Shown here: positions 2,302 through 35,124 of the stretch, piece after piece | How positions within the stretch are numbered: position 1 is the stretch's first letter | Layout: each line of letters opens with the position of its first letter | Virus record (IMG/VR): IMGVR_UViG_2585427747_000001 | Coordinates: 1 to 38,011 of that record | Direction: 5' to 3' (one strand) | DNA from: a virus | Lineage: Duplodnaviria; Heunggongvirae; Uroviricota; Caudoviricetes | Length of the DNA: 38,011 nt | Made by a program: the position numbers and the translations under genes | Notes under the pieces: model-generated | What the model was told of the DNA's origin: nothing | Databases searched by the model: none | What the model saw: only the letters and a program-made list of their open reading frames with translations

Positions 2302-3126
2302 TCAGGCGGTGAAAGTACCAATAAAGGTTTCTACTTTGCTGTCTTTGAATTTCTCAACAAGCAGATCACGAAATTCGTTAGCCATATCTTCCTGCACCGC
2401 TTCCAGCTGAATAATGCGCAGAACCAGTACAGGACGATCGCCAGTGATAATGCTGAGGCGTAATTTAAACGGACGTTCTTTCAGACCTTCAAACGGAACG
2501 CATTTAAATTCAAATGCCACTGGCATAATGTCTTTGGTCTTCGCTTCGACAGATTCCATCAGGGAGCGTTTGCCGCTGAAGTCATTATCTTCAAAATCAG
2601 CGGTCTGGTTTGCTTCAATCGTGATTTTACGGATTGCCGCAGCCGCTTTTGTTGCCTGAATGGCGTCACCATTAGCATCAAAGCCCACAAGGTAGTCGGC
2701 CCAGTCTTCAATCCATTCTGCCAGTGATTTCTGGGAGTTACGCTCGCCGTTAACAGACAACAGGGCAGAGAACGGTGCTGTCTTTTTCAGTTTGAGAGTG
2801 GCGGTGTTATCTGCGTGACCTGGTTCATCAATAGTACCCAGGTTAAGCACACTGACGGCACGCATATTATCAGCATCGATAAAGCAGCGGGTGCCTTCAT
2901 CTGCAAGATCTTTAGAATAACGGGTAAAGTCATCGATGCTGGCAGTGGAAAGCGCACCACGGAAACGGAAGCGATTTAAATTAAATTTTTCCAGATCATG
3001 AATGCGGAAATTCTCAGGCAATGCCACAGCATCGGCACCAATCTTACTGATAATTTCATTAACACCCTGAGCAGAAATAAGGGCATGGATTTGATTAATT
3101 GCGGTTGCGTCTAAGTTCTGAGACAT
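2302..3126 (-). CDS. DUF2303 (YfdQ-like) prophage protein
   Basis: 274-aa ORF in the leftward early operon; resembles the YfdQ family of CPS-53/KplE1 by recollection; function unknown. Confidence 0.6.
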
Positions 3127-3191
3127 AATAAGTCCTCACTATATAAAGATATTCAGTGATGAGATAAATAATCAGTTAATTAAAAACGATA

Positions 3192-3554
3192 TTAACGACC
3201 TGCTGCGCGGAGTTTTCCGTCAGGTTCACCGGCAAGAGTCAGTAACTGTCCCTGGTCTTCCTGCAGAATAGTCAGGCGACCACCGCGATTGACATACATC
3301 GGCGTTTCGGTGGTGTCTTCTTCGGAAATTTTCCCGCGGTTAGTCGGGCGAACATATGAGAGTTTGTGTTTGATTTTCACACGGTTCTCATCAAATGGTT
3401 CGATTTCCAGGTTGAGTGAGACCTTACCTTTGGTTTTCGTGTTCATCACACCGGAAGCGACTTCACTGAGAACTGCGCCGATTTTGGTTTCAAATACGCC
3501 GCCGTCCAGCTCCCCGATAAATGCCTGCACATCAGTACTGCGTTCGCTAGCCAT
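3192..3554 (-). CDS. Hypothetical prophage protein (120 aa)
   Basis: The ORF track gives 226 aa, but the 5' extension runs through a GC-rich structured region; an internal ATG (MASERSTDVQAF…) is preceded by GAGGAG and gives a compact 120-aa product. Confidence 0.55.
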   Translation of the reverse strand: MASERSTDVQAFIGELDGGVFETKIGAVLSEVASGVMNTKTKGKVSLNLEIEPFDENRVKIKHKLSYVRPTNRGKISEEDTTETPMYVNRGGRLTILQEDQGQLLTLAGEPDGKLRAAGR

Positions 3555-3602
3555 TTTGCTGCTCCTCATCATATCGACCCTGCAAGGCCGATTAGTTTCT
3601 CC

Positions 3603-3691
3603 ACAAAACAGAGAAGAACACCTGCGGTGGCAGCCGCCCGGATGGATTGGGTTATGAGCCCGTCGTCCGGTGATGCTCTTCTCTGTTTTGT
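3603..3691. other. Long inverted repeat (15-bp arms acaaaacagagaaga / tcttctctgttttgt, ~59-nt spacer with further internal pairing) in a GC-rich non-coding stretch
   Basis: Read directly from the sequence; lies in a 470-bp region (3555-4022) covered only by overlapping ORFs on both strands without protein-like character. Confidence 0.6.
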
Positions 3692-3957
3692 AAAAAGGAC
3701 GGTACCAGCCGGAAGCAAGGGTACAAACTGGTACCGCCGGGACTACACACAGCATAAAGTTGTGGTGCCGGGTGCCTCCCGGTGCCTGGCGAAGGTTGCA
3801 CACCAGACGGGTGGGTATCCACAGAAGGTCGACTGTCAGCCTCAACCTTAACCCGCGTGCGCTGAGCCGCATTCACCACAACGCTAAGGATTCTCTCTGG
3901 TTAAAAATACTTAGCTGTTATGTGCCTGCTTTTAGCCACATCAGGCGAGGTGGACCT

Positions 3958-4007
3958 GGTTATTCCCCAACAACAAGGATTCGGTTAATCTGGTTATCCC
4001 CAACAAC
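3958..4007 (+). promoter_or_regulatory. Two direct repeats GGTTAT(T)CCCCAACAAC (~3958-3974 and ~3992-4007) immediately upstream of the 4023 start codon; candidate regulator-binding or 5'-UTR element
   Basis: Near-identical 16/17-mers 34 bp apart; the second ends 16 nt before the ATG; a purine-rich RBS (aaaggaaaag) lies between. Confidence 0.45.
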
Positions 4008-4022
4008 GCAAAAGGAAAAGAA

Positions 4023-4457
4023 ATGTCCGGTAATATCTACACGCTGTACAAATCCCACTGTGAAAATGTTGGAAAGTATCGGGGCATTGAAATCAGTGGG
4101 GTAGTGTCATCAGTCGAAATAAGCAAAGTGGAATCAAGGGCAACATTACTTACTCTTCTGGACCTTGTCTTACATGAGCACCGGAAGAAATTCGGCACTC
4201 CCTATAATCAGTTGAATGGGAAAAAGGCTCTGGTTCACCTTATTCTGATGAAGCATCACTGGATGCCAAAACAGATTAATGAGATGAAATTTGATGAACT
4301 TCTTCTTTCAATTCAGGATGAACTCACACTTGATAAAATAAGCGTAACCGCCCAGAAATTTTTAGATTATCGAGACTGGAGATCACAAATTCATCACTTT
4401 GATGATTTTGACGAAAATGAATGGGATCCTAATTTGTCTGCACAATATCTAAAGTAA
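4023..4457 (+). CDS. Hypothetical AT-rich accessory protein (144 aa), antisense to the leftward early operon
   Basis: Clean ORF with RBS; visibly lower GC than the flanking phage genes; no recognisable motifs; 3' end overlaps the convergent small gene by ~29 bp. Confidence 0.6.
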   Translation: MSGNIYTLYKSHCENVGKYRGIEISGVVSSVEISKVESRATLLTLLDLVLHEHRKKFGTPYNQLNGKKALVHLILMKHHWMPKQINEMKFDELLLSIQDELTLDKISVTAQKFLDYRDWRSQIHHFDDFDENEWDPNLSAQYLK

Positions 4458-4635
4458 CATCCTGTGATAAAACCGTGATTTCCTGATCCAGTTTTTTTAA
4501 GGAGTCTATTGTTTCCTGTCGATAAGACAGCACTTCACGAAGCTGGTTTATAGCTGCCAGCTTCTTTGCCATCCACTCGTAAATTTCCTCATTTGTGTAT
4601 CCGGGCGCGACGATTTTGGGTTCTGTTTTGTGCAT
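4429..4635 (-). CDS. Small hypothetical protein (68 aa, predicted coiled-coil), first gene downstream of the putative pL
   Basis: Start trimmed to MHKTEPK…, preceded by GAGGAGG; convergent with and overlapping the 3' end of 4023-4457. Confidence 0.5.
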   Translation of the reverse strand: MHKTEPKIVAPGYTNEEIYEWMAKKLAAINQLREVLSYRQETIDSLKKLDQEITVLSQDVTLDIVQTN

Positions 4636-4883
4636 TTCACACCTCCTCAAGTTATCAGTTACTTGTTGATGGGGACCAGATTGTTAAAGAGCTAAGCGTC
4701 CTGTAGGGCGCTTTTTTGTTGCTAACGAATCACCCTAGACTTCATATGCCCCAGGCGGCTACTTCGTGGGCGTCCTGCCTGTTCGTTTTTGACATTTACT
4801 GACTGCTTACGACACATGCACCGTGTTGCAACCAGATTTTGTTGTAATCCTGTAGTTGGTCTGGAACAAAAGATAAAATTAAA

Positions 4884-4920
4884 TTGCGAGATATGCAAGT
4901 GATATTTGCGAGATATGCAA
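4884..4920. promoter_or_regulatory. Putative OL: two tandem 15-bp operator-like sites TTGCGAGATATGCAA (22-bp period), probably overlapping the leftward early promoter
   Basis: Exact direct repeat; the same TTGCG-N6-GCAA pattern recurs between the repressor and cro genes; on the minus strand each site contains a TTGCAT hexamer that could serve as a -35. Confidence 0.55.
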
Positions 4921-4932
4921 CTTTATAGGTAA

Positions 4933-4955
4933 TAAAAAGCCACCTTTCGGTGGCC
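4933..4955 (-). terminator. Rho-independent terminator downstream of the repressor gene
   Basis: GC stem gccacc/ggtggc with a tttc loop; on the minus strand it is followed by a T-run. Confidence 0.55.
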
Positions 4956-4974
4956 GATGGATGGGATATTGAGG

Positions 4975-5667
4975 TTAATTATGTCTCTTAAGGGTTTGCG
5001 ACTGACTGATTAAGACCTTTCCAAAGACCATGAATCGGTGTTCGTTTTCGCTAGTAATTCCCCATTCACGGTAAATCTGGTTATCAGAAATCACCAGCAG
5101 TTTGTCAGGAATCATTTGAAGTCTTTTAACGTATATTTTGTCATCAAAACCAAAGACATATATACCATCACCATCAAACTGATTGATGCTGACATCAACG
5201 AAGATGAGATCTCCTGGCTCAATGGTTGGACACATACTGTCCCCACGAACGTTGATAACTTTGATGTGATTGGCTGGTCGTCCGCCGAACATTGATACAG
5301 CATTATCAGTTCTGTATTCGATGGCATGAATCACATCAATGACATCACCGCCCTGGATAAGGCCATTTCCCGCACTGGCACTGATATCCAGCATTTCAAT
5401 ACGGAACACATCCTTCACCTGCGCAACATCCTCATTATTACTGTTTTTATATACAGTATTACTTTTGTGGGCAGAGGTAAAGAGATCAGCAATATCAACA
5501 CCTAAGCTCTTGGCAATATTACTCAGTGTTTGTTCGGTAAATTGTTTTTGCTTACCCGTTTCTAAGCGCGAGATGTTCGCCGCATCTACTCCTATTGCTT
5601 CAGCGAGATCGGCGATTTTCATGTTCTTCGCTTGGCGAAGTTGTCTGACTCGGTTTCCTATGTTCAT
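4975..5667 (-). CDS. CI-like prophage repressor (N-terminal HTH, C-terminal S24 LexA-type peptidase domain)
   Basis: N-terminal HTH (RVRQLRQAKNMKIADLAEAIGVDAANISRLETGKQ); 230 aa; divergent from a cro-like gene with operators between. Confidence 0.8.
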   Translation of the reverse strand: MNIGNRVRQLRQAKNMKIADLAEAIGVDAANISRLETGKQKQFTEQTLSNIAKSLGVDIADLFTSAHKSNTVYKNSNNEDVAQVKDVFRIEMLDISASAGNGLIQGGDVIDVIHAIEYRTDNAVSMFGGRPANHIKVINVRGDSMCPTIEPGDLIFVDVSINQFDGDGIYVFGFDDKIYVKRLQMIPDKLLVISDNQIYREWGITSENEHRFMVFGKVLISQSQTLKRHN

Positions 5668-5687
5668 GCGTTTATTACATTTCTTTA

Positions 5688-5748
5688 TTGCGTGATAAGC
5701 AAATCAACTTGCGCAAAATAATTGCGTGAAATAACATGCATAACGCGC
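5688..5748. promoter_or_regulatory. Putative OR/PR/PRM region: operator-like sites TTGCGTGATAAGCAA (~5688-5702), the palindrome TTGCGCAA (~5709-5716) and ATGCATAACGCGCAA (~5734-5748) between the divergent repressor and cro genes
   Basis: Shares the TTGCG-N6-GCAA half-site pattern with the tandem sites at 4884-4920; 97-bp divergent intergenic region. Confidence 0.5.
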
Positions 5749-5764
5749 AATATTTGGAGGACAT

Positions 5765-6025
5765 ATGCAATCACCATTACGAAATGTGCGTAAGGCGCAT
5801 GGTTTCACTTTGCAGCATGTTGCTGCGGGTGTTCAAGTCAATCCAGCGACGTTGAGTCGTATTGAGAGGCTGGAGCAGATTCCATCTATCGAGCTTGCAG
5901 AACGTTTAGCCAATTTTTTTAAGGGTGAAGTCAGCGAAATGCAGATTCTTTATCCGGCACGTTTTCAATCTAGCCAAAACCAGAATGGGTTTAAACCACA
6001 GGAACAGGAGGTGAACCGTGGGTAA
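5765..6025 (+). CDS. Cro-like HTH transcriptional regulator (XRE family)
   Basis: HTH (HGFTLQHVAAGVQVNPATLSRIE) at the N-terminus; divergent from the repressor; RBS GGAGG upstream. Confidence 0.75.
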   Translation: MQSPLRNVRKAHGFTLQHVAAGVQVNPATLSRIERLEQIPSIELAERLANFFKGEVSEMQILYPARFQSSQNQNGFKPQEQEVNRG

Positions 6026-6569
6026 GCATCACTGGAAAGTAGAAAAACAGCCTGAGTGGTACGTGAAAGCTGTCAGAAAAACTATCGCAGCGTTGCCGGG
6101 GGGGTACGCTGAAGCTGCTGACTGGCTGGATGTAACAGAGAACGCATTATTTAACCGCCTTCGTGCCGATGGCGATCAGATTTTCCCGCTGGGATGGGCA
6201 ATGATTTTGCAACGTGCTGGTGGAACTCACTTCATTGCTGACGCTGTGGCCCAGTCTGCAAATGGCGTCTTTGTGTCTCTTCCTGATGTCGAGGATGTGG
6301 ACAACGCCGATATCAACCAACGCCTGCTGGAGGTCATTGAACAGATCGGCAGTTATTCAAAACAGATTCGTTCAGCAATTGAAGACGGTGTAGTGGAACC
6401 GCATGAGAAGACAGCAATTAACGACGAGCTGTACCTCTCAATTTCGAAGCTGCAGGAGCATGCAGCACTGGTCTACAAAATTTTTTGCATTTCAGAAAGT
6501 AATGACGCCCGCGAGTGTGCAGCTCCGGGCGCCGTGGCGTGTCGTGACTGTGGAGAAACTAACGCATGA
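6018..6569 (+). CDS. CII-like phage regulatory protein (CP76 family)
   Basis: Position immediately after cro; 183 aa; family assignment from overall resemblance, not a search. Confidence 0.55.
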
Positions 6570-34719: not shown

Positions 34720-35124
34720 ATGAATGATATCTATGCAGTTGTTGATAATAACGTTGTTATTAATGTCATTATCTGGGACGGAATTTCTGAATGGAAACCA
34801 GAGGCTGGTAATTTAGTTCCGTTAAACGGCGATGCTGGCATCGGTTGGTCATATTCAGACGGAGTATTTACCGCGCCACCTCCCCCAGAACGCTCTCACA
34901 ACGCGTTAGTTGCGGAGGCTGAGCTGCAGAAATCAGCACTACTGACCGTAGCAAATAACACAATAGCACCGCTGCAGGATGCCGTTGATTTGGAAATGGC
35001 GACAGACGATGAACAGGCGTTACTGCTGGCGTGGAAAAAATACAGGGTACTGCTGAACCGTGTTGATACCTCAGCGGCACCCGAAATAGAGTGGCCTACG
35101 CAACCGGGGGAGCGGGCCAGTTGA
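34720..35124 (+). CDS. Tail fibre assembly protein (Tfa)
   Basis: C-terminal region (…[33 protein letters not shown]) typical of Tfa chaperones. Confidence 0.7.

What the first reader, a model, noticed from the sequence alone, without database searches (positions are those of the whole stretch)
3555..4022. 470-bp GC-rich structured non-coding region with a long inverted repeat and direct repeats
Between the divergent genes at 3554 (minus) and 4023 (plus) there is no convincing ORF — only mutually overlapping frames on both strands with biased, non-protein-like composition. The region contains a 15-bp perfect inverted repeat (acaaaacagagaaga at ~3603 / tcttctctgttttgt at ~3677) enclosing a 59-nt GC-rich segment with further internal complementarity, further GC-rich elements (ggtacc…ggtacc; ggtgccgggtgcctcccggtgcctgg), and two GGTTAT(T)CCCCAACAAC direct repeats just before the 4023 ATG. 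This degree of structure suggests a structured RNA, a recombination or replication site, or a complex regulatory region rather than a simple promoter.
Basis: seen in the sequence. Interest (0 to 1): 0.6.

Follow-up and report, generated by a model that had tools for sequence, protein, structure and literature searches.

The report
Prophage small RNA gene plus leader hairpin
The GC-rich "non-coding" gap upstream of yfdP in this SfIV-like prophage holds an unannotated, divergent copy of a known prophage small-RNA family (STnc100 / PasD / sRNA-17) with its own terminator, followed by a long conserved RNA hairpin in the yfdP leader. The kind of element is already known, even though annotation pipelines miss this copy.

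Summary
The inverted repeat, the GGTACC palindrome, the GC-rich block and the two direct repeats all sit where stated, and the region folds far better than shuffled sequence.

Everything reads on the minus strand, the strand of yfdP. The region has four parts:
- **Structured RNA core, 3759-3882.** It is about 125 nt and GC-rich. It matches Rfam STnc100 (RF02076) over the full model at 42.6 bits, below the gathering score of 47, with E=2e-7. It has five nested helices and a covarying loop-loop pseudoknot.
- **Intrinsic terminator.** The stem is 3738-3726 / 3710-3698 and the U5 tract is 3696-3692.
- **Long hairpin, 3691-3603.** It is a conserved, imperfect 25-bp hairpin in the yfdP 5' leader.
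- **Two direct repeats, 3956-4007.** They look like truncated copies of the RNA's 5' boundary. They belong to a repeat set that flanks an inserted two-gene cassette.

The homologue at the same locus in mEp460-like prophages is the experimentally mapped 193-nt sRNA-17. Its 5' end lies at the base of the closing helix and its 3' end at this same terminator.

No ORF in the region shows a coding signature. The PGAP "frameshifted pseudogene" and SfIV p34/p35 are most likely annotation artefacts.

Verdict: a new, sub-threshold member of a known small-RNA family, with a terminator barrier and a leader hairpin. Its function remains unknown.

The parts
3759..3882 (-). Structured RNA core of about 125 nt. 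Closing helix H1 is GUUGUGGUG (3882-3874) paired with CACCACAAC (3767-3759). H2 is 3871-3868 / 3861-3858. Helix A is 3854-3851 / 3812-3809. Hairpin C is 3808-3802 / 3790-3784. H6, CCGGG/CCCGG, is 3782-3778 / 3772-3768.
   Evidence: Rfam STnc100 match on the minus strand. My own covariance model scores 143 bits here and finds canonical STnc100 copies and the sRNA-17 locus. On 20 sequences 94.8% of cells are paired, the covariation score is 0.185 against 0.103 in shuffles (0 of 500 reach it), and slid registers score 0.058 or less.
3792..3849 (-). Loop-loop pseudoknot (helix B). AAGGUUG (3849-3843) pairs with CAACCUU (3798-3792), which lies in the loop of hairpin C.
   Evidence: Double compensatory changes occur at four positions across the sub-family. 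About 40 different strand pairs occur at the same place across canonical STnc100 and sub-family copies. Cognate strands are more complementary than non-cognate ones, and 0 of 2000 permutations reach the observed mean.
3692..3758 (-). Single-stranded linker UUUAUGCUGUGUGUAGUCCC (3758-3739), then an intrinsic terminator. The stem is 3738-3726 / 3710-3698 and the U5 tract is 3696-3692. This is the expected 3' end of the small RNA.
   Evidence: Fold of -20.8 kcal/mol, z=-4.1. ST64B and phiES15 have hairpins of unrelated sequence at the same place, also followed by a T tract. The 3' RACE end of sRNA-17 is this terminator. 75 of 83 canonical family copies have a terminator within 140 nt.
3883..3912 (-). 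5' flank included in the Rfam model. It contains a degenerate boxA-like AAUCCUUAGCG immediately 5' of H1. By analogy with the 5' RACE end of sRNA-17, the mature 5' end is probably near 3883.
   Evidence: Other sub-family types carry UGCUCU(U/C)(U/A) at this position.
3603..3691 (-). Long imperfect hairpin in the yfdP 5' leader. The lower stem is about 23-25 bp and the top is branched.
   Evidence: -48.3 kcal/mol, z=-7.3. It is conserved in mEp460, Stx2c phages and ST64B. ST64B has one G-C to A-U double change. G·U positions become A-U or G-C in variants, and a 25-nt apical insertion is tolerated in L044.
3555..3602 (-). Rest of the yfdP leader: a small hairpin (3592-3585 / 3580-3573), then the Shine-Dalgarno sequence GAGGAG (3567-3562) before the yfdP ATG at 3554.
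   Evidence: Three unrelated sequences form a hairpin at this place in different prophages.
3913..3953 (-). Conserved block upstream of the RNA, shared with SfV and phiES15. Its role is unknown. No sigma-70 consensus promoter was found in it.
3956..4007 (+). Two direct repeats, CTGGTTAT(T)CCCCAACAAC. Read on the minus strand they resemble the RNA's own 5' boundary (UAACCAGA…GAAUCCUU…GUUGUGGUGAAU).
   Evidence: The local alignment to the 5' boundary is reached by 2 of 1000 shuffles. Homology with SfV ends at 3953, just before the repeats. PhiR29_1 keeps the repeats but has a different neighbouring gene.
4663..4682 (+). Third, inverted copy of the repeat. Together with the copy at 3987-4006 it brackets the inserted convergent gene pair: the ECs1072-family gene (4023-4457, plus) and a 73-aa ORF (4650-4429, minus).
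   Evidence: I2. The same inverted arrangement brackets a different cassette in PhiR29_1.

Best explanation
The region is read on the minus strand, as the head of the prophage's leftward early transcription unit.

**Small RNA gene.** It first encodes a small RNA of about 190-215 nt. The RNA has a compact, pseudoknotted 125-nt 5' domain (3882-3759), a 20-nt single-stranded linker, and an intrinsic terminator (3738-3698 plus U5). It is a divergent member of the STnc100 / PasD / sRNA-17 family of prophage small RNAs. Other members of this family bind Hfq and are detected as discrete RNAs.

**Terminator as barrier.** The terminator makes the RNA's 3' end. I infer that it also blocks leftward transcription from reaching yfdP-yfdQ-yfdR…xis-int unless RNA polymerase reads through it.

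**Leader hairpin.** Read-through transcripts carry a long, near-perfect hairpin (3691-3603) and a small hairpin just before the yfdP ribosome-binding site. I infer that these are a processing or stability element of the yfdP leader, for example an RNase III site like the one in the lambda N leader.

**Direct repeats.** The repeats before 4023 are not part of the RNA. They appear to be vestigial copies of its 5' boundary at the junction with an inserted gene cassette.

**Shown:** family homology, the fold and its covariation, the terminator, conservation of the hairpin, and the lack of a coding signal.
**Inferred:** Hfq binding and trans targets for this copy, the barrier role, RNase III processing, and whether the RNA has its own promoter or is cut from the pL transcript.
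For: **Homology**
- Rfam STnc100 matches 3689-3912 on the minus strand over the full model (1-206), at 42.6 bits and E=1.7e-7. It is the only such copy in the window.
- In the reciprocal direction, my model built from SfV/P1-type copies finds canonical STnc100 copies at 35-56 bits. It finds the mEp460 sRNA-17 locus at 29 bits, E=5e-6.

**Structure**
- Five pairs have changes on both sides, 94.8% of cells are paired, and both controls are far lower.
- The pseudoknot covaries.
- G·U pairs in H1, helix A and hairpin C would be A·C mismatches on the other strand.

**Experimental anchor**
- sRNA-17 of E. coli K1 RS218 is 193 nt by 5'/3' RACE and was confirmed by Northern blot (PMC7719688).
- Its full-length primers place the 5' end at CGTTGTGGTGAATGCG and the 3' end at …GGCTGGTACCGCTCTTTT. 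These are the base of H1 and the same terminator, upstream of yfdP in mEp460.
- Replacing sRNA-17 with a Cm-resistance cassette raised yfdP reads from 0.49 to 47.

**Family background**
- STnc100 has 11 annotated copies in EDL933. One of them was confirmed by Northern blot.
- An Hfq-bound RNA, EcOnc27, overlaps the STnc100 copy downstream of stx2B.
- PasD is a related family with RIL-seq targets.

**Terminator**
-.

**No coding signal**
- A 1-nt indel separates the SfV and ST64B types inside the core.
- In the 49-codon ORF, differences fall 4/7/5 by codon position, with 9 non-synonymous and 3 synonymous codon changes.
- There are no Pfam hits.
Against: - The Rfam score is below the curated gathering threshold. 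No member of this sub-family (P1, SJ46, ST64B, phiES15 and others) reaches it either.
- H2 differs from canonical STnc100: UGCG/CGCA instead of CCCCC/GGGGG.
- No sigma-70-like promoter was found upstream of the RNA, so independent transcription is not shown.
- P1-type copies have no terminator. They run straight into a ribosome-binding site, or sit inside a tRNA cluster. The core therefore does not need the typical Hfq-sRNA 3' end.
- No expression, Hfq or target data exist for this exact variant.
- The yfdP de-repression in the sRNA-17 mutant could be read-out from the inserted resistance cassette.
- PHROG families match two of the ORFs. This is expected for near-identical DNA that has been annotated repeatedly.
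Confidence: 0.68

Rival explanations
1. The core is a cis-acting antitermination element, nut- or put-like. It would act together with a boxA / NusB-NusE site and make RNA polymerase resistant to the terminator that follows it and to later ones. The "small RNA" would then be the terminated by-product.
For: - No N homologue is evident. Authors of a study of related phages (LLS, ST64B) also note the lack of N and suggest a put-like mechanism.
- The element lies at the head of the early-left operon and is followed by a terminator.
- Most non-SfV types carry UGCUCU(U/C)(U/A) directly 5' of H1, resembling boxA.
- The window has a perfect rrn-type boxA, GCUCUUUAACAA, at 4681-4692 on the minus strand, after a hairpin and downstream of pL. 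The expected number of such matches by chance is 0.09.
- P1-type copies lack a terminator and sit inside the C1-controlled ban operon, between tRNA genes and tciA.
Against: - None of 83 canonical STnc100 copies has a boxA-like motif, and 75 of them carry their own terminator, as stand-alone small-RNA genes do.
- There is no sequence similarity to HK022 putL.
- The boxA-like motif is degenerate in this window's copy (AAUCCUUAGCG).
- The core and the terminator are separate mosaic modules with a junction near 3739-3741. L057 and L124 are recombinants. This argues against a co-evolved pair.
- No RNA polymerase or Nus binding data exist.
Confidence: 0.13
2. The region is a riboswitch-like leader. 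The conserved 125-nt domain would sense a ligand or factor and control the downstream terminator (SfV, ST64B and phiES15 types) or translation start (P1 types).
For: - One conserved, pseudoknotted domain is combined with different downstream "platforms": terminators of unrelated sequence, or a Shine-Dalgarno sequence and start codon directly.
- In L030/L010 the translation start region repeats the pseudoknot's 3' strand, GAUAACCA.
Against: - No conserved alternative antiterminator pairing between core and terminator was found.
- The same terminator is attached to two quite different cores (SfV-type and sRNA-17-type), so there is no co-evolution.
- Tandem arrays of up to four copies and a copy inside a tRNA cluster do not fit a leader.
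- The pseudoknot sequence is hypervariable rather than forming a conserved pocket.
Confidence: 0.05
3. The region is a decayed or frameshifted protein-coding gene. PGAP calls a frameshifted hypothetical protein at 3569-3879 on the minus strand. SfIV RefSeq calls a 226-aa p34 and a 114-aa p35.
For: - Public annotations.
- PHROG matches: phrog_33599 to minus 3572-3718 and phrog_3651 to plus 3627-3848.
- The 49-codon frame is open in both the window and ST64B.
Against: - No Pfam hit.
- 1-nt and 20-nt indels between homologues.
- No third-position bias (4/7/5), and 9 non-synonymous against 3 synonymous codon changes.
- The phrog_3651 frame is split in two here and runs antisense to the conserved yfdP.
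- The ORF start lies inside a terminator hairpin.
- Variation follows base-pairing, not codons.
Confidence: 0.03
4. The region is a DNA-level site: a replication origin, a recombination site, or a multi-operator regulatory region bound by proteins at the inverted and direct repeats.
For: - There are inverted and direct repeats.
- ArcA-P bound a fragment upstream of sRNA-17 in RS218.
- GTTA motifs occur in the direct repeats.
Against: - G·U wobble pairs and strand-specific compensatory changes indicate selection on the RNA.
- The phage operators are elsewhere: TTGCGAGATATGCAA twice at 4884-4920, and a related copy at 5688-5702 in the cI-cro gap.
- The GTTA spacings are 9, 25 and 34 nt, not the 11-nt spacing I recall for ArcA boxes.
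- Integrase lies at the far left end in the 99.9% identical prophage, so attP is presumably there too.
Confidence: 0.03

Closest known systems
Rfam RF02076 STnc100 (gammaproteobacterial prophage sRNA; overlaps EcOnc27 in EHEC) and the related PasD
   Same: - Same architecture: a closing helix beginning GGUGAAU, a first hairpin, a variable insert, a hairpin whose loop pairs with the strand after the first hairpin, the invariant CACCGGGAGGCACCCGGCACC 3' module, then a linker and an intrinsic terminator.
- Located in a lambdoid prophage.
- The match is full-length and reciprocal between covariance models.
   Different: - The score is below Rfam's gathering threshold (42.6 against 47).
- The first hairpin has a different sequence and size.
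- The sub-family often has a boxA-like motif 5' of the closing helix, which no canonical copy has.
- This copy sits at the head of the early-left operon. The family members described in the literature I read lie in the late region, downstream of stx2 or near Q and the lysis genes.
sRNA-17 of E. coli K1 RS218, in an mEp460-like prophage (PMC7719688)
   Same: - Same locus, between the immunity region and yfdP.
- Same closing helix (GUUGUGGUG / CACCACAAC) and the same 5' start, CGUUGUGGUGAAUGCG.
- Near-identical terminator, long hairpin and yfdP leader.
- Its experimentally mapped ends correspond to window positions of about 3883 and about 3692.
   Different: - The interior of the core is a different sequence. 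My model scores it 29 bits, and Rfam finds nothing there.
- In mEp460 the RNA lies about 250 nt downstream of pL with no gene in between. Here a two-gene cassette is inserted between them.
- The sRNA-17 authors reported no Rfam homologue. The link to STnc100 is made here.
HK022 putL / putR antiterminator RNAs
   Same: A structured RNA in the leader of an early operon, in a lambdoid phage without N, upstream of terminators.
   Different: - No sequence similarity.
- put is about 70 nt with two stem-loops, whereas this is a 125-nt multi-helix domain with a pseudoknot.
- putL lies immediately after pL, while this RNA is about 950 nt from pL.
- The put family is not reported to bind Hfq or to carry its own terminator.
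Lambda N-leader RNase III hairpin and tL terminators (from general knowledge)
   Same: A long, near-perfect RNA duplex just upstream of the first early-left gene, and a terminator that limits leftward transcription.
   Different: There is no sequence relationship. RNase III cleavage and the barrier function are not tested here.

Membership tests
STnc100 (Rfam RF02076) | Scores at or above the family's curated gathering score (47 bits) | tested here: not met
   42.6 bits, E=1.7e-7, full model 1-206. The gathering-threshold scan of the window finds nothing. Other sub-family members also fail.
STnc100 (Rfam RF02076) | Shared secondary-structure architecture, including the invariant 3' module CACCGGGAGGCACCCGGCACC closed by helix H1 | tested here: met
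   Alignment to the Rfam consensus. Covariation on 20 sequences. The reciprocal model finds canonical copies at 35-56 bits.
STnc100 (Rfam RF02076) | Loop-loop pseudoknot between the strand after the first hairpin and the loop of the penultimate hairpin. This feature was derived here and is not part of the Rfam model. | tested here: met
   AAGGUUG / CAACCUU in the window. About 40 strand pairs at the same place across the family. Permutation test 0 of 2000.
STnc100 (Rfam RF02076) | Own intrinsic terminator about 40-60 nt after the core | tested here: met
   Stem 3738-3726 / 3710-3698 plus U5. 75 of 83 canonical copies have one.
STnc100 (Rfam RF02076) | Expressed as a discrete, Hfq-associated small RNA | not testable with these tools
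   Literature only, and only for other copies: Northern blot of one EDL933 copy, EcOnc27 Hfq crosslinking, and the sRNA-17 Northern blot and RACE.
sRNA-17 (E. coli K1, mEp460-like prophage) | Same genomic position and same mapped 5' and 3' boundaries | tested here: met
   The published primers map onto mEp460 (L004 2848-2655, minus). The window shares the 5' start, the H1 strands and the terminator.
sRNA-17 (E. coli K1, mEp460-like prophage) | Same internal sequence, that is the 193-nt sRNA-17 itself | tested here: not met
   Similarity with mEp460 covers only window 3555-3738. The core interiors differ, and homology is detectable only by covariance model (29 bits).
HK022 put RNA | Sequence or structure similarity to putL/putR: two stem-loops, about 70 nt, immediately downstream of pL or about 270 nt downstream of pR | tested here: not met
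   No similarity to the HK022 immunity region beyond chance. putL was read directly. The size and fold differ.
HK022 put RNA | Confers terminator read-through in cis by binding the RNA polymerase beta' zinc-binding domain | not testable with these tools
   No assay is available.
Lambda-type nut site | boxA (consensus CGCUCUUA / UGCUCUUUAACA) next to a short boxB hairpin that binds an N protein | tested here: inconclusive
   The window's copy has only AAUCCUUAGCG at this place. P1, L087, L118 and L041 types have UGCUCU(U/C)U. A perfect boxA lies elsewhere, at 4681-4692. I noticed no N-like gene in the annotations I read, but I did not search for one.
Protein-coding gene (PGAP frameshifted pseudogene; SfIV p34/p35) | Reading frame conserved among homologues, with a codon-position bias of substitutions | tested here: not met
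   1-nt and 20-nt indels. Differences fall 4/7/5 by codon position, with 9 non-synonymous and 3 synonymous changes. No Pfam family.

The most novel reading that the evidence does not exclude
The 125-nt pseudoknotted core shared by STnc100, PasD, sRNA-17 and this sub-family may not primarily be an Hfq base-pairing sRNA.

It may instead be an autonomous structured RNA module of temperate-phage operons. It could be a boxA-associated element that modifies RNA polymerase for antitermination. Or it could be a protein-binding RNA that is cut out of polycistronic transcripts.

Observations that fit this reading:
- It occurs without any terminator inside the P1 ban operon.
- It occurs between tRNA genes.
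- It forms tandem arrays.
- Each copy keeps its own private loop-loop pairing sequence.
Probability: 0.15. Interest if true: 0.8.

Novelty: new member of a known kind. Interest (0 to 1): 0.36.

Why it matters
**Practical.** This exact region occurs in many E. coli and Shigella prophages: 275 of 5,426 complete genomes carry at least 80% of the 1.4-kb query. It is currently annotated as a frameshifted pseudogene or as overlapping hypothetical ORFs, although it is an RNA gene with a terminator.

**Conceptual.** A review counts STnc100 among the most abundant annotated enterobacterial sRNA families and lists no function for it. Three things found here give concrete handles for working out what the family does:
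- sRNA-17, the SfV/ST64B/phiES15/P1 sub-family and canonical STnc100 share one fold.
- That fold contains a strongly covarying, hypervariable loop-loop pseudoknot.
- Some copies sit behind a boxA-like motif or inside tRNA clusters.

If the terminator is a real barrier in front of yfdP…xis-int, it is also part of how these N-less lambdoid phages gate early-left expression.

Tried and rejected
1. **put-like RNA.** The HK022 immunity region was fetched and putL was read directly. There is no similarity to 3555-4022. The paper listing other put RNAs (PMC3187212) is not held, and the supplements of the cryo-EM paper do not list them.
2. **Rfam at gathering threshold.** Nothing was found in the window or in 11 related loci apart from tRNAs, sok and isrK. 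The family appeared only in the E-value scan.
3. **Coding hypotheses.** PHROG and Pfam scans of eight ORFs and a codon-position test led me to reject them.
4. **Sigma-70 promoter for the RNA.** The consensus scan found none in 3100-6100 except one inside the ECs1072 gene. Reading 3913-3953 by eye gave only weak -10 candidates.
5. **RS218 chromosome.** I tried to fetch it to place sRNA-17 directly. It is not in the collection, so mEp460 was used instead.
6. **ArcA boxes in the direct repeats.** The GTTA spacings do not fit, so this was not pursued.
7. **Pseudoknot counted on the MAFFT alignment A3.** The 3' strand is mis-registered by one column for P1-type sequences. I therefore counted it with motif-anchored scripts instead.
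8. **Third repeat copy (4655-4700) against the RNA's 5' boundary.** Not significant: 364 of 1000 shuffles reach the score.
Full report
**Context.** The window is an SfIV/SfV-like lambdoid prophage. Positions 3100-4500 are 99.9% identical to prophages integrated next to tRNA-Thr/proA in E. coli and 99.8% identical to Shigella phage SfIV. The finding lies between yfdP (3192-3554, minus) and an ECs1072-family gene (4023-4457, plus). yfdP is the first gene of the leftward block yfdP-yfdQ-yfdR…xis-int. The LexA/cI-like repressor gene is the minus-strand ORF 4975-5667. Its operators, TTGCGAGATATGCAA, occur twice at 4884-4920, with a related copy in the cI-cro gap. The leftward early promoter pL is therefore near 4860-4925, and the finding lies about 950 nt downstream of it on the minus strand.

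**Checking the observation.**
- GC reaches 0.58-0.60 over 3600-3899, against 0.34-0.51 in the flanks.
- As minus-strand RNA the region folds with z=-5.3.
- Mechanical ORFs do cross the region.
- RefSeq records annotate it inconsistently. SfIV has a 226-aa ORF fused to yfdP plus an overlapping plus-strand ORF. PGAP has a "frameshifted hypothetical protein" at window 3569-3879.

**Mosaic structure.** Comparison with phage records shows at least three modules.
- 3555-3738 is shared at about 96% with mEp460, cdtI and many Stx2c phages. It contains the GGTACC palindrome and the long inverted repeat.
- 3741-3953 is shared with SfV, SfII and ST64B (89% over the core). It is also shared with Cronobacter phage phiES15, where it lies upstream of kil instead of yfdP.
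- 3954-4022 is shared only with SfIV-like phages and PhiR29_1.
- The central block also has relatives in P1, P7, D6, SJ46 and RCS47. In P1 it lies unannotated at 70077-70206, between upl and tciA. It sits inside the C1-controlled ban operon and has the same orientation as tciA-ban.

**What the central block is.** An E-value scan against Rfam gives one clear match. STnc100 (RF02076) matches the minus strand at 3689-3912, over model positions 1-206 of 206, at 42.6 bits and E=1.7e-7. This is just below the gathering score of 47, which is why the standard scan found nothing. No other member of this sub-family reaches the threshold either.

I collected 120 loci with the conserved 5' motif and reduced them to 44 distinct cores of about seven types. 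Twenty of these were aligned. The structure is:
- closing helix H1, 9 bp;
- H2, 4 bp;
- helix A;
- hairpin C;
- H6, CCGGG/CCCGG.

On that alignment 94.8% of cells are paired, and five pairs change on both sides. Examples are H1 U-A to C-G in P1 types and G-C to A-U in phiES15 types. The covariation score is 0.185 against 0.103 in shuffles (0 of 500 reach it), and 0.058 or less in slid registers. H2, H6 and the 5' strand of helix A never vary here. For H2 and for that strand of helix A this is partly because the search pattern fixed them.

**A pseudoknot.** The strand just 3' of helix A (AAGGUUG, 3849-3843) is complementary to the loop of hairpin C (CAACCUU, 3798-3792). The pairing is kept through double changes in other types:
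- AAGGCUG / CAGCCUU in phiES15;
- UGGUUAU / AUAACCA in P1;
- UGGUUAA / UUAACCA in L041;
- UGGUUAG / CUAACCA in L118.

I then fetched 120 loci of canonical STnc100. They show the same thing with many unrelated sequences at the same position, for example AUCAGCA/UGCUGAU, CCAGUC/GACUGG, CUGGUGU/ACACCGG and UGAUACCA/UGGUAUCA. In all there are about 40 strand pairs. Cognate strands are more complementary than non-cognate ones (mean 6.8 against 5.3), and 0 of 2000 permutations reach the observed mean. The window's RNA therefore shares a tertiary feature with the canonical family as well as its helices.

A covariance model built from the sub-family alone scores the window at 143 bits. It finds canonical copies at 35-56 bits, often two to four in tandem on one contig. 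It finds only one copy in the window.

**The terminator.** About 20 nt after H1 comes the "ggtacc…ggtacc" element. On the minus strand it is a 13-bp hairpin (3738-3726 / 3710-3698) followed by C and U5 (-20.8 kcal/mol, z=-4.1). ST64B and phiES15 have hairpins of quite different sequence at the same place, each followed by a T tract. Of 83 distinct canonical copies, 75 have a terminator within 140 nt, with a median of 45 nt from the end of the core to the T tract.

**Experimental anchor.** A text search for yfdP and sRNA found a study of E. coli K1 RS218 (PMC7719688). It mapped a 193-nt "sRNA-17" in an mEp460-like prophage by 5'/3' RACE and confirmed it by Northern blot.
- Its full-length primers give the ends CGTTGTGGTGAATGCG… and …GGCTGGTACCGCTCTTTT.
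- In mEp460 these are the base of a GUUGUGGUG / CACCACAAC closing helix and the very terminator found in this window, followed by the same long hairpin and yfdP.
- The authors found no Rfam homologue, and neither did I for mEp460. My model matches it over its full length at 29 bits, E=5e-6.
- sRNA-17 is therefore the allele of this RNA at the same locus. By analogy the mature RNA here would run from about 3883 to about 3692.
- Replacing sRNA-17 with a resistance cassette raised yfdP reads from 0.49 to 47, and also raised yfdR. This fits a barrier in front of yfdP. However, the cassette was left in place and the terminator lay within a homology arm, so the result is not decisive.
- Their qPCR forward primer lies in the pL leader. 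This suggests that longer transcripts from pL cover the RNA.

**Family background from the literature.**
- STnc100 has 11 annotated copies in EDL933. One of them was confirmed by Northern blot.
- An Hfq-bound RNA, EcOnc27, overlaps the STnc100 copy downstream of stx2B.
- PasD of EPEC is structurally related and has RIL-seq partners.
- A review lists STnc100 among the most abundant annotated sRNAs, with no function given.

**The long inverted repeat.** On the minus strand 3691-3603 folds into a hairpin of -48.3 kcal/mol (z=-7.3). It has a lower stem of about 23 bp and a branched top. It travels with yfdP rather than with the RNA core.
- Among 32 variants it is highly conserved.
- ST64B has one G-C to A-U double change and several one-sided changes that keep pairing.
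- Two G·U positions become A-U or G-C in variants.
- One variant (L044) tolerates a 25-nt insertion at the top while keeping 18 of 20 stem pairs.
- A small hairpin between it and the yfdP ribosome-binding site is formed by three unrelated sequences in different prophages.

I infer a leader element acting on processing, stability or translation of yfdP mRNA. An RNase III site is the most natural guess for a duplex of this length, but nothing here tests it.

**Coding potential.**
- Pfam finds nothing in any of the ORFs.
- Two PHROG families match, as expected for near-identical DNA that has been annotated repeatedly. One of them runs antisense to yfdP and is split into two frames here.
- Between the window and ST64B, the 49-codon ORF across the hairpin has 16 differences. 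They fall 4/7/5 by codon position, with 9 non-synonymous and 3 synonymous codon changes.
- The core contains a 1-nt indel between the SfV and ST64B types, and the terminator loop contains a 20-nt indel.

I reject the frameshifted-gene reading.

**The direct repeats.** Homology with SfV stops at 3953, just before them. PhiR29_1 keeps them but has a different neighbouring gene. An inverted third copy lies at 4663-4682, right after a perfect rrn-type boxA. Together these copies bracket the convergent pair made of the ECs1072-family gene and a 73-aa ORF. In PhiR29_1 the same inverted arrangement brackets a different cassette. Read on the minus strand, the repeat region aligns with the RNA's own 5' boundary (TAACCAGA…GAATCCTT…GTTGTGGTGAAT). 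Only 2 of 1000 shuffles reach that score. I read the repeats as truncated duplicates of that boundary, left at a module junction. I do not read them as operators, though this is a weak inference.

**Mechanism and rivals.** The best-supported reading is a small-RNA gene of the STnc100 / sRNA-17 family. Its terminator also stands between leftward transcription and yfdP…int, and a structured yfdP leader follows.

The main rival is that the core acts in cis on transcription.
- For it: these phages appear to lack N. Most non-SfV types carry UGCUCU(U/C)(U/A), resembling boxA, directly before H1. P1-type copies have no terminator and run into tciA. One copy (L087) sits between tRNA-Thr and tRNA-Ser in a tRNA cluster.
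- Against it: canonical copies never have the boxA-like motif and nearly always have their own terminator. There is no resemblance to HK022 put. The core and the terminator recombine independently.

I give this rival about 0.13.

**Novelty.** The kind of element is known, as an Rfam family and as a characterised allele at this very locus. This variant is unannotated and falls below the Rfam threshold. I did not see three of the observations in the papers I read: the link between sRNA-17 and STnc100, the covarying pseudoknot, and the P1 and tRNA-cluster copies. They concern the family's unknown function rather than a new class of element.

Noticed in passing
window 4716-4800 (minus); also L250 3418-3512 and L005 3085-3185: The first 65 nt or so of the pL transcript (ACGAACAGGCAGGACGCCCACGAAGUAGCCGCC…GAUUCGUU) is conserved in the window, SfV, PhiR29_1 and ST64B, even though their operators differ. 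RNAalifold predicts a closed two-hairpin structure in which 3 pairs change on both sides among only 3 sequences. Its position right after pL recalls HK022 putL, and it contains a CAGGAUGA-like stretch. Homology to put was not established.
   Followed up: partly
window 4675-4713 (minus): A hairpin (AAGCGCCCUACAGGACGCUU) is followed at once by a perfect rrn-type boxA, GCUCUUUAACAA (4692-4681). It is the only such match in the window, against 0.09 expected by chance. It lies downstream of pL and upstream of the 73-aa ORF. This suggests Nus-factor-dependent antitermination in a phage in which I noticed no N-like gene. On the plus strand the same hairpin was flagged as terminator-like.
   Followed up: partly
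window 4023-4650: A convergent, 29-nt-overlapping gene pair: the ECs1072-family gene (144 aa, phrog_5286) and a 73-aa ORF (phrog_1744). It is inserted between pL and the small RNA and lies partly antisense to pL transcription. SfV and PhiR29_1 carry different plus-strand genes in the same slot. This looks like a moron or defence-gene slot.
   Followed up: partly
L007 (phage P1 record 70077-70206), between upl and tciA: An unannotated STnc100-like core in the P1 ban operon. It is preceded by UGCUCUUUCCG and followed directly by the tciA ribosome-binding site, with no terminator. The same holds in SJ46, RCS47, P7 and D6.
   Followed up: partly
L087 about 4350-4495 (minus): The same RNA core is embedded in a tRNA cluster: tRNA-Asn, tRNA-Tyr, tRNA-Thr, core, tRNA-Ser. 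tRNA-Ser starts about 4 nt after the closing helix. This implies release by tRNA-processing enzymes.
   Followed up: partly
L133 2323-3364; L222; L137; L149: Tandem arrays of two to four STnc100-family copies on one strand within about 1 kb. The three L133 copies I examined each have a different pseudoknot sequence.
   Followed up: no
window 34887-35075 (+): A full-length match to Rfam IS009 (RF02111) well below threshold: 47.3 bits against a gathering score of 117, E=6e-8.
   Followed up: no
window 3956-3998 compared with 5051-5085: The direct-repeat region shares a 17-nt stretch (16 of 17 identical) and a second 14-nt stretch with the 3' part of the repressor gene (D2 and D4). This could be a recombination scar or chance.
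   Followed up: no
L005 (ST64B) about 2640-2665 (minus): The 20-nt insertion in the ST64B terminator loop creates AGGAGG 9 nt before a GTG that opens the same 49-51-codon frame across the long hairpin. The substitution pattern argues against a conserved protein, but a small leader peptide is not excluded.
   Followed up: partly
L057, L124: Natural recombinants in which the SfV-type core is joined, exactly at the end of the closing helix, to the mEp460-type linker (AGCCACUGCUUU) and terminator. This shows exchange at the conserved helix.
   Followed up: no
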